A DNA stretch of 64,000 nucleotides from Rhodovibrionaceae bacterium GXU_MW_A322 (lineage in GTDB: Bacteria; Pseudomonadota; Alphaproteobacteria; Kiloniellales; DSM-21159): the NCBI GenBank assembly GCA_052078155.1, contig JBQJBP010000006.1, positions 34,581 to 98,580 on the forward strand. Reading direction: 5' to 3'. Below, in pieces: positions 17,931-64,000 of the stretch. How positions within the stretch are numbered: the first letter of the stretch is position 1; each line of letters opens with the position of its first letter. Below the pieces are notes generated by a model. It was not told the origin of the DNA, made no database searches, and saw nothing but the letters and a program-made list of their open reading frames with translations. The position numbers and the translations under genes were made by a program.

Positions 17931-18061
17931 GAATTTCCCCTGTATCGTTTACTTGTTTTGCTTGGCCCCACAGTAGCAGAGCTTTCGATCAATACACACT
18001 GGCGTTGAAGGTCTGTCCCTTTTTTCTTTTTCAGACCTCAACGCCAGTTTTGTTGCCCGAT

Positions 18062-19384: not shown

Positions 19385-19419
19385 GATTTTTATTCCTGAA
19401 TTTTCCTTGATTGCGGGCG

Positions 19420-31920: not shown

Positions 31921-34900
31921 TTACTGCAACAGAGTTTCGATGATCTGGGCCAGATGTCTGGCGTTGTTGCCCTGCACCAAACTGCCGTGGTTGCCTGGAA
32001 CCCAGTGCAGATGCACAGCGCCCTGTGCCAGCTGGTCCCAATGCAAAAGAGCGGGCCCGTCAGCCTCTTCTTTCGCCCGCACCAGATGCAGATCCCCGGA
32101 CCAGTGGTCGGGATGAAAGGCTGCCAACGCGTTGCTGTTCTTCCGGGTCACCGAGAGCATGCGTTGCAGACCGGGCAGATCCAGAGTGGGCGGCAGGTTG
32201 GGGTGTCCCCTGGCGAGATCCAGCAGCAGGGTCAGGCGCGCTTCTTCTGTTGCTTTGTGCCAGCTCGCGGGATCCAGAGGCAGGTCGGTGGACAAGAGCG
32301 CACGGAACAACTCTGAATCTCGGTGGGGTGCCGGAGAAGGGCTCTCGCTTGCTGTGTCTTTTGTCTGGGCCATTGCATCGATGATGATCAGCGAACCAAC
32401 CTGTCCCCGTGAGGCTTTCAGCTTTTGCCCCAGCGCGTAAGCCAGGTGACCGCCAAAGGACCAGCCTGCCAGAGCGATACGGTCGGACGGGCTGCCCAGT
32501 ATGCCCTTGTCCTGAAGTTGCTGCAGGCAACGTTCTGCCAGCTCTTCCAGGCTTTCCTCAGGATCCGGGCTGCCGGACAGCAGGCCATTGGATTGCAGCG
32601 ACAAAACAGGGCGGGCCTGGCTGAAGTGCCGACTGACACCATAGGCCCAAAGACCATAGCCGGTAGCGGGGGGCAGACAGATCAAAGGGGCACCGTCACC
32701 GCCGCTGTTGACCGTCAGCCAGGGATCGTTGCTCGGAGGGCTTTCCTGGGGCAGTTGATCCAAGGCCCGTGCCAGGTGCCTTGCGCTGGGATGTTCAAAC
32801 ACCAGAGACAGCGGCACAGGGCGCTGCAGCCAGGTTTCGAGACGTTCGGCCAGTTGCACTGCCATGAGAGAGTGGCCGCCGCATTCAAAGAAGTTGCTGG
32901 CGGAGGACAGCGCAGAATTGCCAGCCTGCGGAGGCAGGATGCTCTGCCAGATGTCGAGCAGCGAGGGCAACAGGGAAGAGTCGCCGGTCTCTGCCTCAGA
33001 ACCTTTGGACTCCGGCCCAGGGGAAACGCTCATGCCGGGCAGAACTGTTGAAGCGCTTTCTGATGCCGCTTCTGATCCCTTGTTCAGGGTCTCTGCCAGA
33101 AACAGAGGCAGGTCCGGACTGCTGACGATTTGTTGCACCAGGCTCTCATAGGTCCGGGCCATCTGGTTCAGGGTTTCAGCCTCAAAGAGGTCACTGTTGT
33201 ATTCAAACCCGCCAGAAAGCTCTCGCTGGCCCTGTTCGTTCTCCCGTTCCTCCAGGAACAGACTGAGATCTACCTTGGCAATGGGTGGGGCCAGTTCCAG
33301 CCGGGAAACGTCAAGATTGGGCAGGTCCAGACGCTGGCTGTCCAGCTGAGGGGTATGGTTGTCCAGCGTGAACATGACCTGGAACAGGGGATTGGCAGAG
33401 AGATTGCGGGGCGGAGAGAGCCGTTCGACCACCTGATCGAAGGGCACTTCGTCATGCTCGAAAGCCGCTAAAGCCCGGGTGCGCACGTCCGACAGAAACT
33501 CTGTGAAGCTCTGCCCTGCCTTGGGAGTCAGCCGCAAGACAACCGTGTTGACAAAAAGACCTACAAGAGAGGTCAGTGCGGGATCCTTCCGGCCCGCGAC
33601 CACGGTGCCGATGGGCAAGTCGCTGCCACCGCCCAGGTGATTGAGCAAGGCTGCAAAAGAGGCCGTCATGGTCATAAAGAGGCTGCAGTCATTTTCCGCA
33701 GACAGAGCATTCAGGGCTGCCAGTTGAGGACCAGAGAAGGTGAGTGGATGGATGGCTCCCCGATAGCTGGGCTGGCGGGGACGCGCGTGGTCCAGGGGTA
33801 GAGGCAGAAGCGTTGGGCTACCTGCCAGCTCCCGTTCCCAGAAGTCCAGTTCCCGGTCAAACACCCCGGCTTTCCGGCGGTTTCTTTGCCAGTGAATGTA
33901 ATCCACGTAGCTGATTGCGGCGGGTGACCGGGCGCTTTCACGACCTGACAACAGGGCTTTGTAGGCCTGGCTGATTTCTTCCGCGATTTCCCCTGAAGAC
34001 CAGCCATCGGCCACCAGATGGTGCAGGGTAATGATCAGTGCCCAACTGCTGTCTGACAGCTGAAACAGCTGTGCCCTTATGGGCCAGTCTTTTGTCAGAT
34101 CAAAGGGCCGCAATGCCGCTTTAGCCAGGTGTTTTTGCTGCAGAGGGCGAGGAACCTCTCTGAGGTCTCTTTCTGTCAGAAGACCGCTGACGGCGGGGCC
34201 AGAGCCATCTGCTGGCCTGCCCGAAGTCGTGTTGTCTTCCAGGGCATCTGTAACAAGGTAGGGATTGCCTTTTTGGCTTAGGAACCGGCTGCGCAGTTGC
34301 GGTTGATTGCGCACCAGATGATCAAGAGCCTTGCTCAGCGCTTCCCGATCCAGCTGGCCTGTCAGTTTCAGGGCCAGCGGTATGAGGTAGGCCTGCGCTG
34401 CATCTTCGCCCCCCAGTCGATCAAGAAACCACAGCCGTTCCTGCTGGAAGGAAAGGGGGGCAGGGCTTTGCTGTGCGACCGGTGTCAGGGCTGGGGAGGC
34501 AGGTTCCTGAACCCCACTGTCGCCGTTGTTGTCTGCCGCCAGACTTTCAGCCAGATCGCAGATCCGTGGCGTTTCAAAGAGCCGCCGGGGGGCAATCTCC
34601 CGTCCCAGATGGTCGCTGAGCCTGGCGGCCATTTGCAAGGCCAGAAGGGAGTGGCCGCCCAGTTCAAAGAAATGCGCCGTGCGGGTCAGCTGTTTCTGTT
34701 CCAGCAGTGTTTCGTAGAGCTCTGCCAGGACCTGTTCCAGTGGGTTCTGGGGTGCTTGACCGACAGATGCTGTGTCTTGTTGGGTTGGCGACGGCAGAGC
34801 CTTCCTGTCGATTTTGCCGGAGGGGGTTAAGGCAAAGGCGGGAAGGACAAGCAGGTGGCTGGGCTGCATGTAGTCTGGCAGCTGCTGTTTCAACTGCTGC

Positions 34901-44301: not shown

Positions 44302-44358
44302 TTTTGTCTCCTCGTCTGGTGGCTCGCAACATCAAACAGACAGCATCAGAGGGCCGGT

Positions 44359-50586: not shown

Positions 50587-50616
50587 AGGCAGACCCTTGT
50601 CTCGGAACGAGAGTGC

Positions 50617-51309: not shown

Positions 51310-51321
51310 TTTGCGTGCGTC

Positions 51322-52383
51322 TCAGTTTTTCAATAGATCTTTGATTTCAGCTTCTTCCGCCGCGTCGCACCAGCGGGCCAGAGCCAGAGAAAAGCGCTCA
51401 AAAGCGGGGCCACTGTCAAAACCCAGCTTGGCGCCGGAAATGACAGTGCGGGCCCAAAGAAAGGCAATGCCCTTGCGATAGTCCTGGGTCACAGTCTCCA
51501 GGCTGTAGTTGTCGACCCCGGCGGCAGTCAGGCTGTCGTGGTAGGCCGCCAGCAACCCGGTAAGGGCTTCTGGCCGGTGGTGGAGGAAGTTTCCGGCAGA
51601 GAGGTAAGCCAGGTCAAAGCCGCCACGACCTTTGATGACCGTCTGCCAGTCCAGCAGGGCCCAGCCGCCATCAGCAAAAAACAGCAGATTGTCCAGCCGC
51701 AGATCACCGTGCAGCACTGTGGCCGGTTCCTGGCTCAGATCTGATCTCAGCTTTGTCAGGGCTGTTCCGGCTGTCGGGGCCAGGTGGTGCAACCAGTCGG
51801 GCAGCTGTTCGCCAAAGGTCTTTTCAAAGGCTGGCCAGCAAGCCTGATAGAAGGCTGCAATGTCCGGGCCCTGATCCAGTCGGGGCAGCCAGTCCGGCAG
51901 TGCTTTGCCATCAGGCCTTTGCCAGAAGTGGGCGTGGAACGCTGCAAGATCTTTGACGATAAAGCTGGCCTTCTTTGGTGCCATGCCGCGCAACTGGTCG
52001 CCGGGGCAGCCGTCCTTCAGGTCTTCCAGCAGCAGGATCGGGGCTGCGTCGTCTCCGCCGCTGGCCAGCAGTTGTGGAATGGTCAGTGGGGAACCATCGG
52101 CCAATTGCTCCAGAAAGAGCTTTTCGCGCTGATAGAAGCCCATCTGGCTCATCATCTGCCGGATTTGAGGGTCCTGTGACGGCAGCTTAACCACCAGACT
52201 GTCGGTGGGGCCTGATGTAAGCGACACCCGCGCCAGTTCGCCGGAAAAGCCGCTGTCTTCCCCCAGCGCTGTCACGGTGATGGGACCGGGAGGCTGGTTC
52301 AGAATCCCGGCAATCCACTCAGCTGTTATGTCGTTGCGCCCAAATGCCTTTTCGGCCGAAGCCTGCTCCCCCTGCTGTGTCAT
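51322..52383 (-). CDS. phosphotransferase-family kinase (APH / CHK / ecdysteroid-kinase-like)
   Basis: 353 aa; catalytic HGDLRLDN and DWQ motifs with an N-terminal nucleotide-binding lobe; start overlaps the stop of the upstream FAAL gene. Confidence 0.75.
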   Translation of the reverse strand: MTQQGEQASAEKAFGRNDITAEWIAGILNQPPGPITVTALGEDSGFSGELARVSLTSGPTDSLVVKLPSQDPQIRQMMSQMGFYQREKLFLEQLADGSPLTIPQLLASGGDDAAPILLLEDLKDGCPGDQLRGMAPKKASFIVKDLAAFHAHFWQRPDGKALPDWLPRLDQGPDIAAFYQACWPAFEKTFGEQLPDWLHHLAPTAGTALTKLRSDLSQEPATVLHGDLRLDNLLFFADGGWALLDWQTVIKGRGGFDLAYLSAGNFLHHRPEALTGLLAAYHDSLTAAGVDNYSLETVTQDYRKGIAFLWARTVISGAKLGFDSGPAFERFSLALARWCDAAEEAEIKDLLKN

Positions 52384-55300
52384 TACAGGTCTTCGACCTC
52401 CTTCAATAGGGCGTCCAGTTCTTCTTCCAGGCCGACCTCAGCAGCAGGCTGGATCTGTTTGGCTTTTGCTTCTGTGGGCGTTGGGGCGGGGGCCTGTCTG
52501 CTCCTTGTCTTGCTTCCCGTTTTCGGGGCTTTCCCTTTGGTCAGGCCCGTGCGGTCCCGGGCCAGAAAGGCCGCCAGCTTGGCAATGGAGGGGTAGTCCC
52601 AGATCAAGGTGGCATCCACAGGCCGTTCCAGGTGGCTTTCCAGGTCCATGGCCAGATTGGTCGCTGAAACGGAATCCATGCCCAGGGTGGCAAAGGGACG
52701 GCTCCGGTCGATGCTGCCCATGGGCAGTGACAGAGCCTGAGCCAGCCAGTCGATCATCCAGTTTTCCAGGCCCAGAGCCGAGGATGTTCCGGAAGTCTGC
52801 TCCGCTTTGTTTGCTGCGGATTTAGGTTTGGGCGTTGCCTCAGTTGCTCGTGCGGGAGGAGGGGGAGTGGAGGTTACTCCTCGATTCTCTGAGAGTTTTG
52901 CGTCGTCTGAAGTCTGGTTGACCGCTTGCTTGGGTGAGGCGGGCAAGTCGTTGGCAGCGGCTGTTTCTGTCGGGGAAACCCGGATGGCATCGGAAGGAGA
53001 CATCCCCTCGTTGAGGCTGCTGTTGAGACTGCTGTCGAGGCTTGTGTCCAGGGCTTGTTCGAGTCCTGGACGCTCGCGACCGGCAGCTCCGATGGCCGCG
53101 CTGTATCCGGCAACGAGAGACTGGAATTCCTCCCCGTCCGGCAAGTCCAGCTGCCGGTCCGTCAGGGCGGTCAACTCCGCCAGTGCAGCATCCAGTTTCC
53201 CTCTTGCCCAGGTCAGGGCCCGGGTTGTGGCAGGGGGCAGGGCCGTGCCGCTGCTTTGGCCTTCCAGAGCTGCAAGGCAAATGGCCCAGGCTGCCGCTTC
53301 ACCACTGTGCTGATTGCGCAGCAGGCGGTCATCCATCTGGTTGGCGGCAGTGTTGGCGGTTGTGGTGTCACTGGCTGGTTCTGACGGGGTTGGTTGTGAT
53401 TGGGCTGGCAACCCTGCTTCCAGCTGCCGGGCAGTTTCCTGCCCGCCCAGATCGGCCCGCAGCAGGGCGTCGATGGCCTGAGGTTGGGCGGACAGCCGGG
53501 CCCCCAGGTGATGGCGCACCACTTCGGTGGGTCCTTCAAAGACCCGGATGGCGCGGGCATCGCGCAGCACCTGGGCCACGCGGTTGTTTTCCATGTATCC
53601 CCGACCGCCCAACTGCTGCAGGGTTTCGTCGGTGATCTGCCAAAGCAGTTCCGGTGCCAGAATTTTCAGTGCGCTGTAGAGATCTTCCGGCGCTCCCTCC
53701 GCGGAGTCCGCCAGATGGGCGGTGGCCTGAACCAGTGCCTCCAGGGCGGTGATGGCGCTGCTGGCCTCCAGCAGACCCTGGCGTACCAGCGGGTGATCCA
53801 GCAAACGTCCGGTGATGACCTGACGCTGGCTGACGAAGTGATGACGCAGCCGCAGCATCTCTTTCATCGCGCCCAGACAGAGCGCTGCCAGGCAAAGCCG
53901 GGTAAAGCGCATGGCGTCCTGCGCCACATCCAGTCCTTGCCCTGCGCCGCCAATGCGGTCTGCGTCACTCAGGCGAACCTCACGGAAATGCACGCGGTTC
54001 TGGACCGTGGCGCGCAGGCCCATGGTGTCGGCTTCCGGCCCGGTGCTGAAGCCGGTCATGCCCCGGCGCAAGAGGAAGGCGGATATGCCCAAGGGGCTGC
54101 CGTCTGCGGCCTTTTCCCGGGCAAAACTATGCAGATACTGCGCCCAGGCGGAAGATCCGCTCCAGATTTTTTCCCCGTTCAGTTCCAGCCCCTGATTGTC
54201 GGGCAGGCCCTGGGCGATGGCTTCGATGCCGCGCACGTTGGAACCCGCAGCAGGTTCAGTATAGGCAAAGGCGATGAGGCGGCGGCCGCTGGCAAGTTCC
54301 GGCAGCAACTCCTGTTTCTGGTCCTCCCGCCCGAAAGCCAGCAGTGGGCGCAAACCCAGGCCGTTCTGTAAAACGGTCATCACGCCCAGACTGAGGTCCA
54401 GCGCGCCGACCTGTTCCAGAACCCGCATGCTGTCCGTTGTCAGCAGGCCTTGCCCGCCATGAATTTCTGGCACCTGCAGCCCCAGCAGGCCAATGTTGCC
54501 AAACTCCAGCAGCAGATGAGGCGCTGGCGTGCGCCGGTCATCCATCTGGCGACTGTCGAGCCTGTCCCGTGCCAGATCCCGCAGGGCGGCCAGCATCAGA
54601 TCAGCCTTGCGGCGGCTGCTGTCCGCATCGCCTTCCACCAGGCAGGATTTCACCCGTGGCAGATGGGTGGTAAAGAGGCCTTTCAGCTTTTCCAGGCGGT
54701 TGTCCAGGAAGGCCTGTCGGCAGGCCCGGCGCTGGATCTTGCCGCTGGAGGTTTTGGCCAGCCCCCCGCGTCCGATGAATGCCAGTTGCTGCAAGGCGAT
54801 GTCATGGGCTTCCGCCACCGCGACCTGGGCTTTTTCGAAGAGATTCGGCAGCGCGTCTTCTTTCAGGCTGCGCGGAACTTCCACCACCAGGCCCAGGGCT
54901 TCGGTGCTGTTGTCCTGGGGATCGGGAAAGGAGAAGGCCGCGGCCTCGCAGCCCTGCAGATCCGGATGACAGGCGGTCAGGGTGGCTTCTATGTCCTGGG
55001 GGAAATGATTGCTGCCGCGGATCACGATCAGGTCTTTCAGCCGGCCGGTGACATAGAGCTCTCCTTCCAGAAAGGCCCCCAGATCGCCGGTGCGCAGATA
55101 GCCCTTTTGCTCTGCTGCCTTACTGTTGGCACGGAGCTCTGCGCCAAAAGCCTCCAGGCTTTCTTCCGGTCTCTGCCAGTAGCCTTTGGCGATCCCGGCA
55201 CCTCTAGCCCAGATTTCACCAATGGTCCCATCCGGGCAGACAGCACCGCTTTCCGGATCAACGACTTTCAGGTCTGTGCTGGGTCCCGGCGCACCACAGC

Positions 55301-56528
55301 CCACCAGTTCAAAGGCGCGGCTGCCGTTTTTGGGTGGCGGCAGCGCTTCCAGCCGGCCCTGTTCCAGGGCTTCGGCATCCGCCAGAATCCGGGTGGGCGG
55401 GCCGTCGCCCTGTTTGGCCGTCAGCAGCAATGTGGCTTCGGCCAGGCCGTAAGACGGATAAAAGGCCTTGTCTGAAAAACCGCAGGCCGAAAAGGTCTCG
55501 AAAAATCGGTCCAGGGTTTTCGGGCGCACAACTTCAGCCCCGTTGCTGGCCACGCGCCAGGAGCTGAGGTCCAGGCCTTTGTGGTCGGCGGCGCGGGTGC
55601 GTTCCACACAATAGAGGTAGCCGAAGTCGGGCGAGGCGCTGTGGGTGGCTTTGAAGCTGGAAATGGCTTTAAGCCAGCGTAAGGGAGAGCGCAAAAAGGC
55701 CACGGTCGGCATGATGTAGCCGGGAATGCCGGAGTAGAGCGGCTGCAGCAGCCCCTCCACCAATCCGTAGTCGTGGAAATAGGGCATCCAGTGGACGGCC
55801 ACTGAATCCGGGTCGTAGCGCCAGAGCTCCCGGTTGTAGGCCAGATTGGCCATCAGGCTGTCCTGGCTGACCATGGCGCCTTTTGGGGTGCCGATGGAGC
55901 CGGAGGTATATTGCAAATAAGCAATGTTCTGGTCGTTGGACCGGGGGGGGTAGGCGCTAGTGCTGGCTGGCAGAGCGCTGCTGTCGATGCGCGGCAGGCT
56001 GGCCAGTCCCTCCAGGCGGCTGCCCAGCTGTTCGAGCAGAGACAGGGTCGGGGGGTCGGCCAGGATCATGCTGGCCCCGGAATCCTCCACAATAGACAGC
56101 AGCCGGGGCAGGGTGCGTTTCAGGCGGCTGGCTTCCGGTGGCGGGGCGGGAATGGCGATGACCCCCAGGTCCAGGCAGGCCAGAAAGGCGGTCACAAACT
56201 CCAGGGGGGAAGCATAAAGCAGTAAGGCCCGATCCCCCGGAGCCAGCCGTTCTTCCAGGCTTTTGGAGAGGCCCCAGACCCGTGCCTGCAGGTCTTTGTA
56301 GCTGAGCTGATGGGTCAGGGTTTCTCCCTGTTGCAGCAGACCCAGAGCCAGTTGCTCGCCTTTTGTGTCTGCCCAGTGAGCCAAACGCAGGGCCAGACTG
56401 GTCTGTGGCCTGTGTCCTGACGACTCCAGACCTTTCTTCGCCTTGCCGTCTTGTTCTATCGCTGCGGGTTCTGGCGTCGATTTGGCAGCCATACTTTCAA
56501 AGTCCCTGTTTACTTGCTTGTGCCTCAC
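52383..56528 (-). CDS. fatty acyl-AMP ligase - acyl-CoA dehydrogenase-like domain - acyl carrier protein (FAAL-ACAD-ACP tridomain lipoinitiation protein)
   Basis: FAAL region ([60 protein letters not shown]); central ACAD fold ([15 protein letters not shown], ...[30 protein letters not shown]); Thr/Pro/Ala/Ser-rich linker; C-terminal carrier domain ([18 protein letters not shown]). Confidence 0.85.
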   Translation of the reverse strand: [1381 protein letters not shown]

Positions 56529-56819
56529 CTCTTGTCATGTCTGGCAGAGGTGTTTTTTCGCTGCGGAATGGGACCCGGTGGACTGTCACCGATTTGTCTC
56601 ATTTCGCTCAGGCCAAGTGCAGTTTTTTGACATCTTTGTGCATTTTTGCACCGAAAGCCAGAGGAAAGCCTGGGCTCAGATTAGCCCGTTTTGGGGGGTA
56701 ACTACATTAAAAGTCAGCCATCTTTTCAATTTGTTGGGTGAAGAATCTGACATGACGCTTATACTACTGTCAGATGATCCGTTGAGGCCGACCTGGCCCG
56801 ACGCAGACATCTTCTGGCG

Positions 56820-59800
56820 ATGACTCCGAAAAATAAGCGGCAGCAGAAAATGAACGATCGCCCGAACAAGGGACAGGACCAGCGTCTGTCAGCGGCCGTT
56901 GAGGCCATCAAGAAGCTCAAGGCGCGGGTGGCGGAACTGGAGGCGGAACGCTCTGAGGCCATTGCGGTTGTGGGGCTGGGCTGTCGTTTTCCCGGCGCCG
57001 CCGATTCGCCTGCTGCTCTTTGGGATCTGCTGAGCCAGGGCCGCGACGGCATTACCGCTGTCCCGGCAGACCGCTGGGATGCGGAGGCCTGGTATGACCC
57101 GGACCCTCAGGCCCCGGGAAAAACCCACAGCCGCTGGGGCGGTTTCCTGGATCAGGTGTCAGAATTCGACAGTGGTTTTTTCGGTCTCAGCCCAAAAGAG
57201 GCAGACAATCTGGACCCCCAGCAGCGGATCTTTCTGGAAAGCTGCTGGTCGGCTTTGGAAGATGGCGGTCAGGCCGGGGATCTGGAAGCGCTCGGTTCCG
57301 TTGGGGTCTTCGCAGGCATCTCTACGGCCGACTACTCCCGTTTGGGCCTCTGGTCGGGCGATCTGACGGACATCTCCGCTTACAGCTATACCGGTTCTTC
57401 TGCCAACGCCCTGGCGGGGCGCGTTTCCTATCTTCTGGGGCTGGAAGGCCCGGCGCTGGCTGTGGATACGGCCTGTTCCTCATCGCTGGTGACGGTGCAT
57501 CTGGCCTGTCAGGCGCTGCGCAACAAAGAGTGCGACCTGGCGCTGGCCGGCGGGTCCAACGTCATGCTCAGTCCCGAGATGTCGGTTTTCTTCTCCAAGG
57601 TCGGGGCGGTCACAGGCGAGGACCGTTGCCGGGTTTTCGACGCCAGGGCTCAGGGCTACCTGCGCGGTGAAGGGGCAGGTGTTGTTCTTCTCAAGCGCTT
57701 GAGTCAGGCGCTGGCTGATGGGGACCCCATCCGGGCGGTGATCGCCGGTTCTGCGGTCAACCAGGACGGCGCCTCCAACGGCTTTACAGCCCCCAACGGG
57801 CCGTCCCAGCAACGGGTGGTCCAGCAGGCGCTGGCGGCTGCCCATCTGCCCGCTTCATCCGTTGATTACGTTGAGTGTCACGGGACTGGGACCCCTTTGG
57901 GCGACCCGATTGAGGTTGGTGCTTTGGGGTCGGTTTTTGGGGATCGTGACGGATCTTTGCTGTTGGGATCGGTAAAGACGAATCTGGGTCATCTGGAGGC
58001 GGCGGCTGGCATTGCGGGACTGATCAAGACTGTTTTGAGTCTTGAGGCGGGTGCTTTGCCAGCGTCGTTGCATTTTGAGGAGCCCAATCCTGCGATTGCC
58101 TGGGGGTCTTTGCCTGTTGAGGTTGTGACGGGCTTGCGTGCCTGGCCAGAGAAGGCTGCGGGCGAGGCGCGTGTTGCGGGCGTGAGTTCTTTTGGCATGA
58201 GCGGAACGAACGCGCATGTTGTTCTGACGTCAGCGCCGGAGCGTGAGGAGGTGTCTCGTGCCGCGCCGGCCCGTCCGGTGATTTTGCCTCTCTCTGGAGC
58301 CAGTGTCGGTGGTCTGGAGGGCCAGATAGCCGCGCAGGTATCCCACCTGTCCGCCGCAGCAACCCGCGGGCTTGATGCCCTTGAGCCTGATGCCCTTGAG
58401 CCTGATGCCCTTAAGCCTGGGGCTCTGTTTGACCGGAGCTGGTCTTTGGCCACTGGCCGGGCGGCCTTGCGGCAGCGGGCGGCGAGCGTTGGGTCTGATG
58501 GTGCATCGTTGAGCGACTTTTCCATCCGGGGGTCCGCCGGGTCTGGCCGTGAGGGCTGTGTTTTTCTTTATCCCGGTCAGGGGTCTCAGTGGGCGGGCAT
58601 GGGCCTTGAGCTGGCTGAGAGCGAGCCGGTGTTTCAGGCCGGGCTGGAGGCTTGCGCGGATGTTGTGGGCTCAGAGCTGCTGGAGGTCTTGAAGGACGCC
58701 GGACGTCTGACGGACACGCGCTGGACGCAGCCGGCGGTTTTTGCGGTGAGCTGGGCGCTGGACCGCTTGCTGGCGAGCTGGGGCGTAGAGCCTGTGGCGG
58801 TGCTGGGCCATTCGGTGGGTGACTATGTGGCGGCGGTTCGCTCCGGGGCGCTGGACTTTGAGAGGGGGTTGGGCCTGCTGGACAAGCGGGCGCAGCTGAT
58901 GGGCAGCCTGCCGGCTGGCGGTGCTATGGCGAGCCTGCGCTGTTCGGCAGAACAGGCGCCAGAGCTGCTGGCTGAGGGGATCGTGATTTCGGCGATCAAT
59001 GGGCCGAGCGCGATAACGGTCTCTGGCCCGGAGGCAGGGATTGCGGCAACGCTGGTGGCCGCTGAGCAGAAGAACATTCATGGCAGGCGGCTGCCTGTAA
59101 GCCATGCCTTTCATTCTCCTGCCATGGCCCCGGCAGCAGCGGAGCTGCGGTCCTTTGCGGCGGCCAGTCCCTTTGGAGAGGCTGAGCTGGGCTGGATCAG
59201 CAATGTGACCGGCAGCTGGCACCGGGGTGAGAGCGCAGCGGACTACTGGGCCGAGCAGCTGACCAGCCCGGTGGCGTTCTGGGCGGGCCTGGAGACCCTT
59301 TACGGGGCCGGTCATCGCCGCTTTCTGGAGGTGGGCCCGGGCACCGGTCTGGCCGGTCTGGTGGCGCAGCTCAAGCCGAAGGGCTCGACGAGCAACGGCA
59401 CAACAAATGGCACGACAGGCCTCACGCTGCTGAAAGAGGATCAGCCTGAGGCTCTGTCACTTGCCAGAGGTCTGGCGGGCTACTGGTGCTCGGGCGGAGA
59501 GCTGGACTGGGAGGCCTATTGCAATGAGCCGGGCCAGGCGGGTCCGCGCCGGAAAATCAGCCTGCCGGGCTATGCCTTTGACCGTCAGCGGCACTGGCTG
59601 GAGACAGCGGCGAGCCGGGCGCTGCAGGCCGGAGGCGACCTGAGCAAGGCCCTCTATACAGAAGAACTTTCTCCCTTGCCCCGGTCTGGTGAGGCAGCAT
59701 CTGAGGTTGGACCTTTACGGTTGCTGGGGCCCGGGGCGAAAGCTCTCAAGCTGCCGAGCGATGAGGCAGGCCAGCCTGTCTATGTCCTGCCCACAGAGTT

Positions 59801-62800
59801 GAGTGCGGCACAGACCGAGAAGGCTCTGGTGGAACTGGCGGGCCTGCTGGGCGCAGAAGAAAGCGTGACGGTGCTCACCCGGGGCGGGCTGCTGGCCCGG
59901 ACCTTTGAGAGCTTCTGCCGCACGGCGCAGTTAGAGCAGCCTGAGGCTGTGAGGTATCTGGATTGGGACGGGCAGGCAGCAGATCAGCTTGCTGAGGTGT
60001 TGAGTGCCGCGCGGCCGGATCTGGCGGTTCTGCGGGACGGCCAGCTCTATGGGCCGGAGCTGAGCCCGGCCAGGCTGGACCTGCCGGGCCAGGACCTCAA
60101 ACTGTCAGAGACCGGAAAGTATCTGGTGACCGGCGGGGCCGGAGCCTTGGGCCAGGGCCTGGCCGGACGGCTGCTGGCCGCGGGAGCCGGTGAGGTGATC
60201 CTGACGGGCCGCCGGGCCGTCAAAGAGATTTCTCTCTCCGAGACACTGAAAGACGCGCGCGTCTCCTATCGACAGCTGGACCTGAGCAAAGCCAAAGCGG
60301 TTGAGGCGGCTCTGGCAGAACTGGGTCCCCTTGCTGGGGTGGCGCATCTGGCCGGGTCCGGGAACTTTGCGCCAGCGGCTGAGACAACGGCAGCCCGGGT
60401 GAAAGCCACCTTTGGCGGCAAGCTGGGCGGGGCCCGGGTGTTGGCTGAGGCCTTGCTCAAACAGGCAGACAAGCCGGACTGGGTTTTACTCTATGGCTCA
60501 ATCTCAGCGGTCTGGGGCTCGAAAGGTCAGGCGGTTTACGGGGCGGCCAACGGCGGGCTCAAGGGCCTGGCGGAAGAATTGAAGGCCCAAGGTTTGCCAG
60601 CTCTTTGCATTAACTGGGGGCCCTGGTCGCTGGAGGATCCAGCAAAGAACCCGGCTGGGGGCGGCATGACCGACGAAGGGGCTCTCCAGTTGCTCAGGGG
60701 CATCGGGGTGTCGGGCCTGAGACCTGCAGCGGTGGGTCTGTTGGAAAACCGTCTGCTCCAGGCCCTGCAGTCCGGTAAGGAGTTACCCGCCAGCCTGACG
60801 GTGGCGGAGGTGGACTGGGATCAGTTCGCGCCGGTCTATGAGGTGCAGGGACAGCGGGCCTTTCTGAACAGAGTTCGTCCCACAGCGCCGCTGGCCGCTG
60901 TTGCCGCTGGCGGTGGTTCAGCGTTCCAGAAGACGTTGGAAAGCCTGCCGGGCGCTGCCAGACGCAGCAAGGTTCTGGCCCTGCTGCAGGAACAGGCGCA
61001 GGCCGTGATGGGCTTTGATACCGCCAGTGGTGACAGCCTGCCGGAGGACCGGGGCCTGTTTGAGCTGGGCCTGGATTCTTTGATGGCGGTGTCTTTGGCC
61101 AGGTCTTTGAGCCAGACCCTGGGCCAGGAAGTTCCGGCCACGCTGATCTTTGACAAGCCGCAGCTGGGGTCGCTGGCGACCGGGCTGCTGGAGCTACTGG
61201 GGCTGTCCGGCGACAGTGAGGGGCCTGTTGAAACCTCCTCGGTGGCAAGCAGCGCCGGGACCCAAACAGAAAACCAGCCTGCGGCTGTGGCGATTGTGTC
61301 TGTTGCCTGTCGTCTGCCGGGCAGCGTCGAGACGCCCGAGGCGTTGCAGGCGGCTTTGCTGGCCGGGCTGGATGGCATCCGGGAGGTGGAGGCGGATCGC
61401 TGGTCGGCGGAGCGCTTTACCTCTGAGGGCGGGAGCGAGCCGGGCACCATGGCGACCAGCCGGGGCGGCTATCTGGATCTGCAAAAGGGTCTGGATGCGG
61501 GTCTTTTTGGCCTGTCGCCGCGTGAGGCCAGCCGTCTGGAGCCGCAGCAGAGATTGCTGCTGGAGGTATCCTGGGAGGCTTTGGAGCGGGCGGGCATTGC
61601 CGCAGACAGCCTGTGGGGCACAAAGGGCTCGGTTTTTGTTGGCCTGTCGAACAATGACTTTGGTCCGCTGCTGCAGGCAGAGGATGGTCTGGAGGGACTG
61701 GACCTGCACCATGCCACGGGCAATGCCCTGTCGGCGGCGGCGGGTCGGCTCAATCATTTTTACGGGTTAAGAGGTCCGGCTTTGGCCCTGGACACGGCCT
61801 GCTCGTCCAGTTTGAGCGCCATACATCTGGCCTGCCGCTCGCTGCTCTCGGGGGAAAGTGATCTGGCCCTGGCGGGTGGGGTGAACGTGATCTTGTCACC
61901 GGCGGTCTCGGTTGCGGCGGCCAGGGCGGGCATGCTCTCGCCCGAGGGGCGCTGCAAGACCTTTGACGGCACGGCGGACGGTTATGTGCGCGGTGAGGGC
62001 TGTGGTCTGGTGGTGCTGAAGCGGCTGGAGGATGCGCAAAGAGACGGGGATCCCATTGAGGCGGTGATTTTGGGCACGGCGCTCAATCACAACGGCACCA
62101 GCGGGGGGCTGACGGTGCCCTCGGGCCCGGCCCAGGAGGCGCTGATCGGCGAGGCCCTGAGCGCCGCCAACATCCAGGCCAGCGACATTCAAGTGTTGGA
62201 GGCCCATGGCACGGGCACGGCTTTGGGCGATCCCATTGAGCTGACAGCGGCGGCCAGAGCGCTGTCCCAGGGGCGCCCGGAGGAGCGTCCGCTCAAGCTG
62301 GGGTCCGTGAAGACCAATCTGGGTCATCTGGAGTCTGCGGCGGGCATGGCGGGTCTGACCAAGCTGGTGGCGGCTTTGCAGGATGAGGTTCTGCCCGGGC
62401 AACTGCCTTTGCCGACCGAGCCCAACAGCAAGATCCCCTGGGCGGATCTCAATGTTGAGGTTCTGCAGACGCCTCTGGCCTGGCCCCAACAAGCAGGCAA
62501 AGTCCGTCTGGCAGGCCTGTCGTCATTTGGCTTTACCGGCACCAATGGTCATCTGATCCTCGCCGGCCCCGAAGTGGCCACCTCCGTGGCTGTTCAGTCC
62601 GGCACTGCCGGTGAGGACGGGACTGACCTGAGCTCTACGGGACCCTGGCCCATTCTGCTCTCTGCCAAGTCCAAAGAGGCGCTGAGCGCCCTGGCCAGGG
62701 CCTATGCGGACTGGCTGACAGGGGACGAGGATCTGGCGCAGTTGAGCTGGACGACGCTGACCGGGCGCGCGCGGCTGAGCCAGCGGCTGGCGCTCCAGGC

Positions 62801-64000
62801 AGCGGATTTAGCTGATGCGAAGGCCAAACTGGCAGGCATCTCGCAAGGTCAGCACCCCGTCGGCACGGTAACGGGAGAGGGGCAGGCGACAGGCTCTGTC
62901 TGGCTCTTTACCGGCCAGGGCAGTCAGGCCGTGGGTCTGGGTCTGCTGGACGCGCCGGTCTATCAGGCCGTTCTCGAACGCTGTGATGGAGCTTTGGCTC
63001 AACTGGACAAAGAGCTGGGAGAGGCCAGTCCCTGGCAGGGTCAGTCTTTGCTGGAAGTCCTGAAGACCGGCACGGAAGAAACACTGGCAGAGACCCATTG
63101 GACGCAGCCGGCGCTTTATGCGGTGGGCTGTGGCCTGGCGGCGCTCTGGCGCAGCTGGGGTCTGGCCCCGCAAGCGGTTGCCGGTCATTCTCTGGGGGAA
63201 TATGCCGCAGCCCAGGTGGCCGGTGTTTTTGATCTGGAAGCGGGTCTGCGTCTGGTGGCCCAGCGCGGTCGGCTGATGGCGGGCCTGCCGACCCAGGGGA
63301 CCATGGCGGCGGTGGCCGCCCCGCTGGAGACTGTCGAAGAGGTCCTGGCCAGCTTAAAAGAGGCTGAGCGTCCTGAGATTGGCGGGGTCAATGGCCCGCA
63401 GGCGGTAACGATTTCCGGCACGAAGGAGGCTGTTGCTGCGGCGACGGCTGCCCTGGAAGAGGCTGGCCTGCGGGTCCGGCCCCTGGCGGTCAGTCAGGCC
63501 TTTCATTCCCGTCTGCTGGAGCCTATGGCGGAAGACTTCCGTCAGGAGCTGGACGCCATTGACTTTAAAGCGCCCAACCTGGCCTGGGCCCGGGGTCTGG
63601 ACGGCCAGTGGCAGGCCGGTGCGCCGGATCCGGAGGTCTGGCTGGCCTCTTTGCGCCAGCCCGTGCGCTTTGATCTGATCTGCGGGCGACTGGCGGAGCT
63701 GGGCGACAAGGTCTGGCTGGAACTGGGGGCCAAACCCCAGCTGCTGGGCCTGGCTGCGGAAAGCGAAACAGCCCCGACACCCGCCATCGCCTCCCTGCGC
63801 CTGCCGCGCGGAGACACAGCCTACACCGCCCAAAGTCTCAGCCAGGCCCTCACCACCGCTGCCCTCAGTCTCACGGCACAATCAAAAGACCCGCAGCCAG
63901 ACTGGACACAAATCCGACCAAAACCAAAAAACAACAAACCAAAATCAATCCCAACATACCAATACCAAAAATCAACCTACTGGCCCCTCAAAGGTAAAGC
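56820..64000 (+). CDS. type I polyketide synthase, 5' partial within window: KS1-AT1-KR1-ACP1-KS2-AT2-... (continues beyond window end)
   Basis: - Frame open from ATG 56820 (alternative start at 56850) to the window end, so the ORF is absent from the complete-ORF track.
- KS1: AVVGLGCRFPGA, DTACSSSL, HGTGT.
- AT1: GHSVGD, HAFHS.
- KR1: YLVTGGAGALG, YGAANG.
- ACP1: LGLDSLMAV.
- KS2: VSVACRLPG, DTACSSSL.
- AT2: GHSLGE, QAFHS. Confidence 0.9.
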   Translation, partial: MTPKNKRQQKMNDRPNKGQDQRLSAAVEAIKKLKARVAELEAERSEAIAVVGLGCRFPGAADSPAALWDLLSQGRDGITAVPADRWDAEAWYDPDPQAPGKTHSRWGGFLDQVSEFDSGFFGLSPKEADNLDPQQRIFLESCWSALEDGGQAGDLEALGSVGVFAGISTADYSRLGLWSGDLTDISAYSYTGSSANALAGRVSYLLGLEGPALAVDTACSSSLVTVHLACQALRNKECDLALAGGSNVMLSPEMSVFFSKVGAVTGEDRCRVFDARAQGYLRGEGAGVVLLKRLSQALADGDPIRAVIAGSAVNQDGASNGFTAPNGPSQQRVVQQALAAAHLPASSVDYVECHGTGTPLGDPIEVGALGSVFGDRDGSLLLGSVKTNLGHLEAAAGIAGLIKTVLSLEAGALPASLHFEEPNPAIAWGSLPVEVVTGLRAWPEKAAGEARVAGVSSFGMSGTNAHVVLTSAPEREEVSRAAPARPVILPLSGASVGGLEGQIAAQVSHLSAAATRGLDALEPDALEPDALKPGALFDRSWSLATGRAALRQRAASVGSDGASLSDFSIRGSAGSGREGCVFLYPGQGSQWAGMGLELAESEPVFQAGLEACADVVGSELLEVLKDAGRLTDTRWTQPAVFAVSWALDRLLASWGVEPVAVLGHSVGDYVAAVRSGALDFERGLGLLDKRAQLMGSLPAGGAMASLRCSAEQAPELLAEGIVISAINGPSAITVSGPEAGIAATLVAAEQKNIHGRRLPVSHAFHSPAMAPAAAELRSFAAASPFGEAELGWISNVTGSWHRGESAADYWAEQLTSPVAFWAGLETLYGAGHRRFLEVGPGTGLAGLVAQLKPKGSTSNGTTNGTTGLTLLKEDQPEALSLARGLAGYWCSGGELDWEAYCNEPGQAGPRRKISLPGYAFDRQRHWLETAASRALQAGGDLSKALYTEELSPLPRSGEAASEVGPLRLLGPGAKALKLPSDEAGQPVYVLPTELSAAQTEKALVELAGLLGAEESVTVLTRGGLLARTFESFCRTAQLEQPEAVRYLDWDGQAADQLAEVLSAARPDLAVLRDGQLYGPELSPARLDLPGQDLKLSETGKYLVTGGAGALGQGLAGRLLAAGAGEVILTGRRAVKEISLSETLKDARVSYRQLDLSKAKAVEAALAELGPLAGVAHLAGSGNFAPAAETTAARVKATFGGKLGGARVLAEALLKQADKPDWVLLYGSISAVWGSKGQAVYGAANGGLKGLAEELKAQGLPALCINWGPWSLEDPAKNPAGGGMTDEGALQLLRGIGVSGLRPAAVGLLENRLLQALQSGKELPASLTVAEVDWDQFAPVYEVQGQRAFLNRVRPTAPLAAVAAGGGSAFQKTLESLPGAARRSKVLALLQEQAQAVMGFDTASGDSLPEDRGLFELGLDSLMAVSLARSLSQTLGQEVPATLIFDKPQLGSLATGLLELLGLSGDSEGPVETSSVASSAGTQTENQPAAVAIVSVACRLPGSVETPEALQAALLAGLDGIREVEADRWSAERFTSEGGSEPGTMATSRGGYLDLQKGLDAGLFGLSPREASRLEPQQRLLLEVSWEALERAGIAADSLWGTKGSVFVGLSNNDFGPLLQAEDGLEGLDLHHATGNALSAAAGRLNHFYGLRGPALALDTACSSSLSAIHLACRSLLSGESDLALAGGVNVILSPAVSVAAARAGMLSPEGRCKTFDGTADGYVRGEGCGLVVLKRLEDAQRDGDPIEAVILGTALNHNGTSGGLTVPSGPAQEALIGEALSAANIQASDIQVLEAHGTGTALGDPIELTAAARALSQGRPEERPLKLGSVKTNLGHLESAAGMAGLTKLVAALQDEVLPGQLPLPTEPNSKIPWADLNVEVLQTPLAWPQQAGKVRLAGLSSFGFTGTNGHLILAGPEVATSVAVQSGTAGEDGTDLSSTGPWPILLSAKSKEALSALARAYADWLTGDEDLAQLSWTTLTGRARLSQRLALQAADLADAKAKLAGISQGQHPVGTVTGEGQATGSVWLFTGQGSQAVGLGLLDAPVYQAVLERCDGALAQLDKELGEASPWQGQSLLEVLKTGTEETLAETHWTQPALYAVGCGLAALWRSWGLAPQAVAGHSLGEYAAAQVAGVFDLEAGLRLVAQRGRLMAGLPTQGTMAAVAAPLETVEEVLASLKEAERPEIGGVNGPQAVTISGTKEAVAAATAALEEAGLRVRPLAVSQAFHSRLLEPMAEDFRQELDAIDFKAPNLAWARGLDGQWQAGAPDPEVWLASLRQPVRFDLICGRLAELGDKVWLELGAKPQLLGLAAESETAPTPAIASLRLPRGDTAYTAQSLSQALTTAALSLTAQSKDPQPDWTQIRPKPKNNKPKSIPTYQYQKSTYWPLKGK
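58366..58410 (+). repeat. 3 x 15-bp in-frame tandem repeat (DALEP x3) in PKS KS-AT linker
   Basis: gatgcccttgagcct gatgcccttgagcct gatgcccttaagcct seen directly in the sequence. Confidence 0.8.

What the first reader, a model, noticed from the sequence alone, without database searches (positions are those of the whole stretch)
31921..64000. Large hybrid FAAL-PKS-NRPS lipopeptide biosynthetic gene cluster of unusual composition
More than 32 kb of contiguous secondary-metabolite genes, with the PKS running off the window:
- a 12.4-kb four-module NRPS beginning with a starter C domain (an N-terminal C with no preceding carrier domain implies N-acylation from an external acyl-ACP);
- a SyrD-like exporter and an SPFH protein in the same operon;
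- a P450;
- on the other flank a FAAL-ACAD-ACP tridomain, an APH-like kinase and a low-GC membrane protein divergent from a multi-module malonyl-specific type I PKS.

The logic resembles FAAL/PKS-primed lipopeptides (iturin/mycosubtilin or puwainaphycin-type initiation). However, the combination of ACAD-containing initiator, kinase, SPFH and terminal A-less module is not one I recognise as a described pathway. I did not see an adenylation-domain partner for the last module, an MbtH-like gene or a PPTase in the window.
Basis: partly seen in the sequence, partly recalled or inferred. Interest (0 to 1): 0.85.

Follow-up and report, generated by a model that had tools for sequence, protein, structure and literature searches.

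The report
Orphan fatty-acid-primed PKS–NRPS lipopeptide cluster
This is a real but uncharacterised gene cluster for a lipid-tailed peptide in a marine-type alphaproteobacterium. Its one unusual feature is a fatty-acid loading enzyme with a built-in dehydrogenase that is always paired with a small kinase.

Summary
They are a 4126-aa NRPS (Cs-A-T-C-A-T-C-A-T-C-T-TE, three A domains for four carrier domains), an SPFH protein, a SyrD-family cyclic-peptide ABC exporter, a P450 and a 49.5 %-GC orphan membrane protein. They also include an APH/EcKL kinase, a FAAL-ACAD-ACP tridomain and a divergent malonyl-specific type I PKS.

The window is the end of a 98.6-kb contig of Rhodovibrionaceae bacterium A322, so the PKS cannot be extended here. 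Its last 6.2 kb encodes 2053 residues identical to a second, complete PKS (KS-AT-KR-ACP-KS-AT-cMT-KR-ACP) on the strain's 2.66-Mb contig. A recent PKS duplication therefore probably broke the assembly.

The conserved core is the cassette loader + overlapping kinase (+ P450) + DH-less PKS. It recurs in about ten loci from several lineages. The NRPS/exporter set accompanies it in only one other locus.

Each "odd" part has a precedent:
- NvlI, a FAAL-ACAD loader
- DepG/DepF, a kinase-ACAD pair in romidepsin biosynthesis
- SyrE, with an A-less last module

No characterised orthologue was found. Verdict: a new variant of a known kind, of moderate interest. The PKS-to-NRPS link and the kinase's role remain inferred.

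The parts
31921..44301 (-). NRPS, 4126 aa (NCBI MGO1121107.1): Cs-A1-T1-C2-A2-T2-C3-A3-T3-C4-T4-TE
   Evidence: Pfam, core motifs and domain copies by tblastn. Specificity codes are A1 DASTIAAVCK (Tyr-like), A2 DIFQYGLIWK (Gly-like) and A3 DTDDSGAVTK (acidic pocket). Accession.
42952..44301 (-). Starter-type condensation domain C1, with no preceding carrier domain and only about 15 aa of N-terminal extension
   Evidence: The best solved relatives are RzmA-Cs 7C1K/7C1H/7C1P (E 5e-26). C1 is 23-25 % identical to C2-C4, which are 40-44 % identical to one another.
31924..34452 (-). Terminal A-less module C4-T4-TE (C4 33082-34452, T4 32761-32955, TE 31924-32721)
   Evidence: C4 is an ordinary elongation C domain; its best PDB match is 5U89 at E 1e-80. 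T4 carries GGHSL and the TE carries GWSFG. No A domain lies between C4 and T4.
44359..45660 (-). SPFH/Band 7 membrane protein, 57 nt upstream of the NRPS start
   Evidence: Pfam PF01145, E 4.5e-22. An orthologue sits in the same position in L082 (52 % identity).
45644..47278 (-). Cyclic-peptide export ABC transporter of the SyrD/PvdE family (MGO1121109.1)
   Evidence: NCBIfam TIGR01194, 314.2 bits against a cut-off of 286.2. The L082 orthologue is 60 % identical.
48128..48697 (-).
   Evidence: Pfam PF05128. It is 75 % identical to the gene in the same position in L082.
49222..50586 (+). Cytochrome P450 of the CYP4/CYP97/CYP102-like kind (MGO1121112.1), convergent with the loader operon
   Evidence: Pfam p450, E 6e-88. 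The PDB neighbours after the unnamed 7WZL entry are CYP97 carotenoid hydroxylases, CYP170A1, CYP102 (P450 BM3) and CYP4B1. It is conserved next to the kinase in L081, L082, L088 and the P0005 contig.
50617..51309 (-). 230-aa hypothetical protein with one N-terminal hydrophobic helix (MGO1121113.1, ACTL6U_20625). It is probably a strain-specific insertion and not part of the conserved pathway.
   Evidence: GC is 0.495, against 0.60-0.63 for its neighbours. It has no Pfam or NCBIfam match. It has no homologue in any syntenic locus.
51322..52383 (-). APH/EcKL-fold kinase (MGO1121114.1). Its start overlaps the stop of the loader gene.
   Evidence: Pfam APH and EcKL. The catalytic HGDLRLDN and DWQ motifs are invariant in the five orthologues. 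The family profile's best solved relatives are 3DXP (4.8e-12) and ACAD11 (9.3e-10). Only 6 representatives reach 41 % identity or more among 1.84 billion.
52383..56492 (-). FAAL-ACAD-ACP loading protein (MGO1121115.1, 1369 aa; the longest ORF reaches 56528). FAAL 54687-56372, ACAD 53493-54599, ACP 52563-52751, with a conserved C-terminal ELDALLxEV tail.
   Evidence: Pfam. The best NCBIfam matches are FAAL families. The ACAD domain's best PDB matches are ACAD9 and VLCAD. Its Glu in FEGPTE aligns with the FEG of ACAD9.
56850..64000 (+). Type I PKS, truncated by the contig end (MGO1121116.1, 'partial'). KS1 56955-58349, AT1 58560-59519, KR1 60114-60629, ACP1 61026-61181, KS2 61284-62762, AT2 62898-63749. 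No DH domain.
   Evidence: Translation and Pfam on pieces. It is 100 % identical to P0121. The N-terminal coiled coil is conserved with the orthologues.
57840..63998 (+). Part of the PKS gene whose product is residue-for-residue identical to aa 347-2399 of a second PKS of the same strain (MGO1117061.1, 3443 aa, on the 2,657,077-bp contig)
   Evidence: 0 mismatches in 2053 aa, whereas the first 340 aa are only 60 % identical.

Best explanation
This is one orphan hybrid pathway for an N-acylated tetrapeptide with a polyketide-extended lipid tail.

Shown:
- The FAAL domain is of the fatty-acyl-AMP-ligase kind and sits in one polypeptide with a canonical, VLCAD/ACAD9-like ACAD domain (catalytic Glu present) and an ACP.
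- The PKS begins with a KS and has DH-less, malonyl-specific modules.
- The NRPS begins with a starter-type C domain and ends in C-T-TE.
- The exporter is of the SyrD family.

Inferred:
- The FAAL loads a free fatty acid onto its own ACP, and the ACAD makes the 2-enoyl-ACP.
- The conserved C-terminal tail of the loader docks onto the conserved N-terminal coiled coil of the PKS.
- The PKS is at least KS-AT-KR-ACP-KS-AT-cMT-KR-ACP, and is probably followed by the near-identical second PKS. It adds malonyl units and keeps every beta-hydroxyl, giving a methyl-branched polyol acyl chain.
- The starter C domain transfers this chain onto residue 1 (Tyr-like). Gly-like and cationic residues follow. 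A fourth residue is loaded in trans or by A3 onto the A-less T4.
- The TE releases or cyclises the product, and the ABC transporter exports it.
- The kinase is translationally coupled to the loader wherever this loader clade occurs. It most likely phosphorylates a hydroxyl of the carrier-bound lipid intermediate, and the P450 is a possible source of that hydroxyl.
For: - Domain content and motifs.
- FAAL family assignment.
- Canonical ACAD: best PDB matches are ACAD9 and VLCAD, and the Glu aligns with FEG in ACAD9. The same I/VFEGPTE motif occurs in all seven loaders examined, six of them kinase-paired.
- Loader tail ELDALLxEV and PKS head RLxAAxxAIxKLxxRVxELE are conserved together in the window and L081-L084.
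- A published proposal has a FAAL-ACAD loader feeding type I PKSs (NvlI; PMC9324945).
- A full syntenic copy exists in an unrelated contig, L082. It carries PKS | loader, kinase | P450 | DUF697, ABC, SPFH, Cs-NRPS at 40-75 % identity.
- C1 is of the starter type.
- The sister PKS P0399 gives the missing cMT-KR-ACP. The L083 orthologue has the same nine-domain order.
- The combination FAAL-ACAD-ACP, PKS, then NRPS also occurs in an acidobacterial MAG, L167.
- The kinase is catalytically intact and always overlaps or abuts the loader gene.
- Its nearest solved relatives are ACAD10/11-type acyl-thioester kinases.
Against: - The PKS end and whatever follows it lie on another contig, so no hand-off domain has been seen.
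- The NRPS has no N-terminal docking domain.
- Its C1 is closest to RzmA-Cs, which from my own knowledge takes acyl-CoA. The NRPS could therefore be primed from primary metabolism.
- In L081, L083, L084, L088 and the P0005 contig, the cassette is seen without the NRPS/exporter set within the DNA available.
- A-domain codes were read against a GrsA sequence recalled from memory. It reproduced DAWTIAAICK, but no predictor was run.
- The loading of T4 is unexplained inside the window.
Confidence: 0.6

Rival explanations
1. There are two neighbouring but chemically independent clusters. One is the loader/kinase/P450/PKS cassette, which makes a (phospho)polyol lipid. The other is a Cs-initiated NRPS that takes its acyl group from primary-metabolism acyl-CoA or acyl-ACP, as Pseudomonas lipopeptide synthetases and rhizomide synthetase do.
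For: - The cassette occurs without a visible NRPS in L081, L083 (with PPTase, carbamoyltransferase and sugar-type aminotransferase instead), L084 (next to plasmid Rep3/ParA), L088 and the P0005 contig.
- C1's best solved relative is RzmA-Cs.
- There is no docking domain before C1.
- The two gene sets are in separate transcription units.
Against: - Both sets stay adjacent, in the same order and orientation, in L082 at only 40-75 % protein identity.
- No gene unrelated to secondary metabolism lies between them, apart from the low-GC orphan.
- In most cassette-only loci the view is cut by contig ends or by the 10-kb flank, so absence of an NRPS is not established.
Confidence: 0.25
2. The kinase and the fused ACAD work as a DepG/DepF-like (LvaA/LvaC, ACAD10/11-like) pair. 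A gamma-hydroxyacyl thioester on the loader ACP, made by the P450 or selected by the FAAL, is phosphorylated. The ACAD then removes the phosphate and gives an enoyl thioester. Phosphorylation is thus a transient leaving-group step and not a decoration.
For: - DepG phosphorylates a carrier-bound gamma-hydroxy thioester and the ACAD homologue DepF converts it to the enoyl thioester (bioRxiv 10.1101/2025.03.13.642940).
- The same logic operates in ACAD10/11 and LvaA/LvaC (PMC12440821).
- The kinase family's best solved relatives are 3DXP and ACAD11, ahead of antibiotic kinases.
- The kinase is strictly coupled to the ACAD-containing loader in about ten loci.
- Kinase-associated ACAD domains share basic residues that other FAAL-ACAD-ACP proteins lack: R804, R893, H896, H1006 and H1007.
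Against: - The ACAD domain keeps the canonical Glu, not the Asp that defines DepF/LvaC/ACAD10/11. It lacks the HCMR motif.
- Its best solved relatives are ACAD9 and VLCAD, not ACAD11.
- Relatives of the kinase at about 30 % identity sit next to SDRs, MFS transporters and methyltransferases, not ACADs.
- A Glu-type ACAD could make the enoyl-ACP directly.
- The positions of the clade-specific basic residues in the fold are unknown.
Confidence: 0.25
3. The kinase is a self-resistance or prodrug enzyme that phosphorylates the finished metabolite, as Vph, Cph, AmiN, CalQ or ComG do.
For: - It is an APH-fold kinase inside a biosynthetic cluster. Viomycin and capreomycin kinases appear among the weaker PDB matches.
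- Corramycin is inactivated by a kinase, ComG (title of PMC10996006).
- The predicted product would have several free hydroxyls.
Against: - The kinase follows the loader, not the scaffold. It is coupled to FAAL-ACAD-ACP in loci whose remaining genes differ (NRPS in the window and L082, carbamoyl/aminosugar genes in L083, a plasmid backbone in L084). Any common substrate must therefore be the lipid part.
- Antibiotic kinases are more distant than ACAD11-type kinases.
Confidence: 0.2

Closest known systems
NvlI loading module of the nostovalerolactone PKS (Nostoc punctiforme; PMC9324945)
   Same: A FAAL domain is followed by an ACAD domain. It is proposed to activate and desaturate a fatty acid and to hand it to type I PKS modules. 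The same tridomain Pfam set is found in all 120 best homologues listed.
   Different: No kinase was detected within the DNA held (up to 10 kb either side) around the 80 more distant FAAL-ACAD-ACP loci, cyanobacterial ones among them; the nvl locus itself was not examined. Nvl ends in tetronate-like chemistry, not an NRPS. The identity between NvlI and the window protein was not measured.
DepG/DepF of romidepsin (FK228) biosynthesis, and the related LvaA/LvaC and ACAD10/11 systems
   Same: An APH-fold kinase is paired with an ACAD-family enzyme and acts on a thioester-bound acyl chain in a PKS-NRPS context. The kinase family here is nearest to the ACAD11 kinase domain among solved structures.
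   Different: Here the ACAD is fused between FAAL and ACP and keeps the canonical Glu. The HCMR motif is absent. The substrate hydroxyl is unknown.
Mycosubtilin/iturin and puwainaphycin-type FAAL-PKS-NRPS lipopeptide initiation
   Same: A FAAL-activated fatty acid is extended by PKS module(s) before peptide assembly, and the NRPS starts with a C domain.
   Different: No aminotransferase domain or gene is seen, so no beta-amino fatty acid is made. There are an ACAD domain, at least two DH-less modules and a kinase. L167 is a closer analogue of that logic: loader, PKS, aminotransferase, NRPS.
Syringomycin synthetase SyrE with the SyrD exporter (my own knowledge of the literature)
   Same: The last module lacks an A domain and needs loading in trans. 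The exporter belongs to the same TIGR01194 family.
   Different: No SyrB1/SyrB2/SyrC-like genes are in the window. There is a single TE. The peptide has four residues, not nine.
Rhizomide synthetase RzmA starter C domain (PDB 7C1H/7C1K/7C1P)
   Same: It is the best solved match to C1 (E 5e-26, N-terminal half).
   Different: The match covers only residues 16-171. RzmA-Cs uses acyl-CoA (my own knowledge), and the donor here is unknown.

Membership tests
FAAL-ACAD-ACP PKS loading proteins (NvlI type) | FAAL, three-part ACAD and ACP domains in this order in one polypeptide | tested here: met
   Pfam AMP-binding 53-451, AMP-dom_DIP2-like 499-614, Acyl-CoA_dh_N/M/1 644-1012 and PP-binding 1260-1322. 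The best NCBIfam matches are FAAL families.
FAAL-ACAD-ACP PKS loading proteins (NvlI type) | Adjacent type I PKS that starts with a KS and has no loading module of its own | tested here: met
   The divergent PKS begins with a coiled coil and then KS at aa 46. The matched tail and head motifs are conserved in the orthologues.
FAAL-ACAD-ACP PKS loading proteins (NvlI type) | ACAD with the canonical catalytic glutamate (a dehydrogenase) | tested here: met
   FEGPTE aligns with FEGTNE of ACAD9. The best PDB matches are ACAD9 and VLCAD.
DepG/DepF - LvaA/LvaC - ACAD10/11 kinase-ACAD hydroxyl-elimination pair | APH-fold kinase related to the ACAD10/11 kinase domain, with an intact catalytic loop | tested here: met
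   HGDLRLDN and DWQ are invariant. The profile's top PDB hits are 3DXP at 4.8e-12 and ACAD11 at 9.3e-10.
DepG/DepF - LvaA/LvaC - ACAD10/11 kinase-ACAD hydroxyl-elimination pair | ACAD partner with Asp in place of the catalytic Glu | tested here: not met
   Glu is present in the window and in all six loader homologues examined, five of them kinase-paired. The feature is as stated.
DepG/DepF - LvaA/LvaC - ACAD10/11 kinase-ACAD hydroxyl-elimination pair | HCMR motif and upstream Arg for phosphate binding (ACAD10/11, LvaC) | tested here: not met
   The equivalent helix reads FTRLCLAALCLGAMKEM. Other clade-specific basic residues exist, but their place in the fold is unknown.
DepG/DepF - LvaA/LvaC - ACAD10/11 kinase-ACAD hydroxyl-elimination pair | Substrate is a gamma-hydroxyacyl thioester | not testable with these tools
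   This needs enzymology. The DH-less PKS would give beta- and delta-hydroxyls, not gamma-hydroxyls, unless the starter is hydroxylated.
Iturin/mycosubtilin/puwainaphycin-type beta-amino-fatty-acid lipopeptides | Aminotransferase domain or gene that converts the beta-keto thioester into a beta-amino acid | tested here: not met
   None was found in the cluster genes of the window, nor in P0399. The rest of the cluster is on another contig, so this holds only for the part seen.
Cs-initiated (lipoinitiation) NRPS | N-terminal C domain of the starter subtype with no upstream carrier domain | tested here: met
   C1 starts at about residue 15. The best PDB match is RzmA-Cs, and CDA C1 also matches. 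C1 is 23-25 % identical to C2-C4. No dedicated C-subtype classifier was available.
SyrE-type A-less terminal module loaded in trans | C-T-TE without an A domain | tested here: met
SyrE-type A-less terminal module loaded in trans | Stand-alone A-T protein and an aminoacyl-transferase (SyrB1/SyrC-like) in the cluster | tested here: not met
   No further A or T domain is in the 64-kb window. The part of the cluster on the other contig could not be tested.
TIGR01194 cyclic peptide export ABC transporters (SyrD/PvdE) | Score above NCBIfam's curated cut-off over the full length | tested here: met
   314.2 bits against 286.2, covering residues 20-535.

The most novel reading that the evidence does not exclude
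The loader-kinase pair is a previously unrecognised, fused and widespread version of the 'phosphorylate a hydroxyl, then let an ACAD act' logic. That logic is so far known only from 4-hydroxy-acid catabolism (LvaA/LvaC, ACAD10/11) and from DepG/DepF in romidepsin biosynthesis. Here it would be built into a PKS loading module, with a Glu-type ACAD. It would edit the fatty-acid starter before chain extension, either by hydroxyl deletion or by diene formation. Alternatively, it would leave a stable phosphate on the lipid tail of a family of lipopeptides and glycolipids.
Probability: 0.25. Interest if true: 0.65.

Novelty: new variant of a known kind. Interest (0 to 1): 0.45.

Why it matters
If the pathway is a single one, it would give a lipopeptide whose tail is a methyl-branched polyol made by DH-less, recently duplicated PKS modules. 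It would come from a bacterial family for which a full-text search found no polyketide literature.

The more general point is the loader. A FAAL-ACAD-ACP protein that is always translationally coupled to an ACAD10/11-like kinase marks a small cassette. The cassette is spread across lineages, is apparently mobile (one copy lies next to plasmid replication genes), and is combined with different downstream chemistry. Working out what the kinase does would show how far the DepG/DepF kinase-ACAD chemistry, recently found in romidepsin biosynthesis, extends in assembly-line initiation.

For genome mining, the kinase is a compact handle for finding this lipid-building cassette.

Tried and rejected
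- Exact look-ups of window proteins in the contig index found nothing, including P0121 and P0399. The contig could therefore not be extended.
Because of that, neither the NRPS nor the kinase could be searched in the named 5.8-billion-protein database.
- I considered reading the kinase-ACAD pair as a strict LvaA/LvaC or ACAD10/11 orthologue. I rejected it for the ACAD half, which has Glu instead of Asp, lacks HCMR and is VLCAD-like.
- The kinase alone gave no PDB hit, and a five-sequence profile gave only marginal hits. A 36-sequence profile was needed.
- A plasmid search with the kinase found only relatives at 27-35 % identity, in unrelated contexts.
- A neighbour census of the roughly 30 %-identical kinases showed SDR, MFS and methyltransferase genes and no ACAD enrichment. 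The ACAD association is therefore specific to this clade.
- Literature searches for Rhodovibrionaceae polyketides, for PDB entry 7WZL and for FAAL-ACAD architectures found nothing beyond NvlI.
- Rfam and tRNA scans of the window were empty.
- Structure prediction was not used. The tool would not accept the kinase homologues, and it returns no coordinates for mapping residues.
Full report
**Observation.** The region 31921-64000 is filled with long, uninterrupted genes of secondary metabolism.
- The 12.4-kb ORF on the minus strand (31921-44301, 4126 aa) matches Condensation, AMP-binding (three stretches), PP-binding (four) and Thioesterase.
- Motif positions give the order C-A-T-C-A-T-C-A-T-C-T-TE. 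HHxxxDG lies at aa 147, 1234, 2324 and 3427, the four carrier serines are present, and the TE has GWSFG.
- tblastn with its own domains finds 4 C, 3 A, 4 T and 1 TE. The only other adenylating domain in the 64 kb is the FAAL. The A-less last module is therefore real.
- Upstream in the same direction lie an SPFH protein and an ABC transporter whose stop overlaps the SPFH start. The transporter passes NCBIfam's cut-off for cyclic-peptide exporters of the SyrD/PvdE family.
- A DUF697 gene, a P450 and a 230-aa orphan with 49.5 % GC follow. After them come an APH/EcKL kinase whose start overlaps the stop of a FAAL-ACAD-ACP gene, and that FAAL-ACAD-ACP gene itself.
- Divergent from it is a type I PKS with KS-AT-KR-ACP-KS-AT and malonyl-type AT motifs.
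- No MbtH motif and no PPTase homologue are in the window.
- The left 31 kb is primary metabolism, so the left border of the cluster lies near 31 kb.

**Source and the truncated PKS.** The PKS fragment is 100 % identical to NCBI MGO1121116.1, annotated 'type I polyketide synthase, partial [Rhodovibrionaceae bacterium A322]', on a 98,580-bp contig.
- The neighbouring window proteins are MGO1121107 to MGO1121115. The deposited 2384-residue partial protein is one residue longer than the 2383 residues the window encodes from the same start (MNDRPNK). The window therefore ends within a few bases of the contig end.
- The same 90 % protein cluster holds a complete 3443-aa PKS of the same strain on its 2,657,077-bp contig, MGO1117061.1.
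- Residues 347-2399 of that protein are identical, without one mismatch in 2053 residues, to residues 341-2393 of the window PKS (window nt 57840-63998). The first 340 residues are only 60 % identical.
- The window's N-terminus is the orthologue of the loader-adjacent PKS in related loci (65-70 % identity). The second protein's N-terminus is more distant (48-55 %).
- The second PKS continues with cMT-KR-ACP and a C-terminal docking-like tail. The orthologous PKS in L083 has the same nine-domain order.
- I infer two near-identical bimodular PKS genes, and that this repeat broke the assembly. Accession and locus-tag arithmetic places MGO1117061 within roughly the first twenty genes of the annotation. 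That is probably near the start of the large contig, which would fit the cluster continuing there. This is inference, not shown.

**Relatives and the conserved core.** FAAL-ACAD-ACP proteins are common. All 120 best hits carry the FAAL and ACAD domain set, and nearly all also a PP-binding (ACP) domain. Cyanobacteria, Flavobacteriia, Planctomycetota and Burkholderia are among the hosts.
- None of the 80 genome loci fetched around more distant members has the kinase.
- The closest members do have it, always directly after the loader and mostly overlapping its stop:

| Locus | Loader identity | Genes seen |
|---|---|---|
| L082 | 55 % | PKS, loader, kinase, P450, DUF697, ABC, SPFH, Cs-NRPS |
| L083 | 48 % | PKS, loader, kinase; then PPTase, carbamoyltransferase and aminotransferase genes |
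| L081, Roseovarius aestuarii | 46 % | loader, kinase, P450, PKS |
| L084 | 44 % | PKS, loader, kinase; next to Rep3/ParA plasmid genes |
| P0005 contig | 43 % | loader, kinase, P450, PKS |
| L087, L088 | not measured | fragments of the same cassette |
| L168, probably cyanobacterial | 41 % | loader, kinase (37 % identical to the window's), SurE |

- A P450 orthologue (44-53 % identity where measured) sits next to the kinase in four of these loci, and a bimodular DH-less PKS is adjacent in most.
- Only L082 also has DUF697, ABC, SPFH and a Cs-NRPS, in the same order as the window.
- The kinase clade is small. Six representatives reach 41 % identity or more among 1.84 billion cluster representatives.
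- The low-GC orphan has no counterpart anywhere.
- The conserved unit is therefore loader + kinase (+ P450) + PKS. It appears with different downstream genes, which argues that the kinase acts on the lipid part.

**The loader.** The ACAD domain's best solved relatives are ACAD9 and VLCAD.
- Its FEGPTE aligns with FEGTNE of ACAD9, the position of the catalytic glutamate. All seven loaders examined, six of them kinase-paired, have I/VFEGPTE.
- The extreme C-terminus of the loader (ELDALLxEV) and the N-terminus of the PKS (RLxAAxxAIxKLxxRVxELE) are conserved together across the loci. I read them as a matched docking pair.
- A FAAL-ACAD loader that desaturates a fatty acid and passes it to type I PKSs has been proposed for nostovalerolactone.

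**The kinase.** HGDLRLDN, DWQ and the VVK lysine are invariant.
- Alone it finds nothing in the PDB.
- A 36-sequence family profile finds 3DXP (an APH-fold protein deposited as 'putative acyl-CoA dehydrogenase', 4.8e-12) and ACAD11 (9.3e-10). These rank ahead of aminoglycoside, viomycin and capreomycin kinases.
- ACAD10/11 and LvaA/LvaC phosphorylate 4-hydroxyacyl-CoA and eliminate the phosphate with an atypical ACAD that has Asp and an HCMR motif.
- A 2025 preprint shows the same pair acting in trans on a PKS carrier domain in romidepsin biosynthesis. DepG phosphorylates a gamma-hydroxy thioester, and DepF (with Asp for Glu) gives the enoyl thioester.
- The pairing here recalls that system, but the ACAD half fails the defining residues.
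- Two further observations cut both ways. The roughly 30 %-identical kinases are not found next to ACADs. Kinase-associated ACAD domains share basic residues that other family members lack, namely R804, R893, H896, H1006 and H1007.
- I therefore keep a DepG/DepF-like transient phosphorylation as a rival or novel reading at about 0.25, beside stable phosphorylation or self-resistance.

**The NRPS.** C1 is only 23-25 % identical to C2-C4, which are 40-44 % identical to each other. Its best solved relatives are the rhizomide starter C domain and, more weakly, CDA C1. C4 is an ordinary elongation domain.
- Specificity codes were read against a GrsA segment recalled from memory, which reproduced DAWTIAAICK as a check. 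They are DASTIAAVCK (Tyr-like), DIFQYGLIWK (Gly-like) and DTDDSGAVTK (an acidic pocket, so probably a cationic residue). The assignments rest on my own knowledge of published codes.
- There are no E domains and no dual C/E signatures.
- T4 is a normal PCP (GGHSL), so it must be loaded by A3 or in trans.
- C1 has no N-terminal docking domain. This is the main reason the PKS-to-NRPS hand-off remains an inference.

**Comparison with what is known, and verdict.**
- The cluster works like a FAAL-primed PKS feeding a lipoinitiating NRPS.
- It is not of the iturin/puwainaphycin type, because no aminotransferase is present. L167 shows that variant with an ACAD loader.
- Each unusual element has a precedent: NvlI, DepG/DepF, SyrE/SyrD and RzmA-Cs.
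- No characterised orthologue was found. No literature exists for this family, and MIBiG could not be queried.
- I rate it a new variant of a known kind, with interest 0.45. The most interesting thread is the loader-kinase cassette, not the cluster as a whole.

Noticed in passing
window 57840-63998: This stretch encodes 2053 residues identical to a second PKS of the same strain on another contig (MGO1117061.1). It points to a recent duplication or gene conversion of PKS modules, and it probably caused the contig break.
   Followed up: yes
window 50617-51309 (-): A 230-aa ORF with one N-terminal hydrophobic helix and GC 0.495, sitting inside a 0.60-0.63 GC operon. It has no Pfam or NCBIfam match and no homologue in any syntenic locus. 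It looks like a strain-specific insertion between the kinase and the P450.
   Followed up: partly
window 53493-54599 (ACAD domain; loader residues 804, 893, 896, 1006, 1007): ACAD domains of kinase-associated loaders share R804, R893, H896, H1006 and H1007. In 114 other FAAL-ACAD-ACP proteins these positions are mostly Q, Q, L, M and F. Their place in the fold is unknown.
   Followed up: partly
L084 5748-8448: A copy of the PKS/loader/kinase cassette lies directly next to Rep3 replication and ParA partition genes. At least one copy is therefore plasmid-borne.
   Followed up: no
L168 263-7100: A probably cyanobacterial contig (ChpXY and NDH genes nearby) has the loader, the kinase 560 nt downstream, and then a SurE-family phosphatase/nucleotidase gene.
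   Followed up: no
L167 10001-23717: A Thermoanaerobaculia MAG has FAAL-ACAD-ACP, a DH-containing PKS, a class V aminotransferase and a multimodular NRPS in one direction, without a kinase. This is an ACAD-loader version of the iturin/puwainaphycin logic.
   Followed up: no
L083 14867-23319: In this relative the cassette is followed by a PPTase, a carbamoyltransferase, a DegT-type aminotransferase and hypothetical genes instead of an NRPS. This suggests a glycolipid-like product built on the same lipid.
   Followed up: no
window 16623-21014 (-): Four adjacent genes: a glutamine-synthetase-like protein, a glutamate-synthase-domain protein, a GXGXG protein and a class II amidotransferase. From my own knowledge, this is the gene set of the N-methylglutamate pathway of methylamine use.
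   Followed up: no
window 6609-11610 (-): Two family III CoA-transferases, an HpcH/citrate-lyase-like aldolase and a thiolase-like protein lie in a row. This is an unassigned acyl-CoA pathway.
   Followed up: no
window 2475-3878 (+): A 467-aa ORF with no Pfam match.
   Followed up: no
window 1-64000: No tRNA or tmRNA gene, and no Rfam family at gathering threshold, anywhere in the window.
   Followed up: yes
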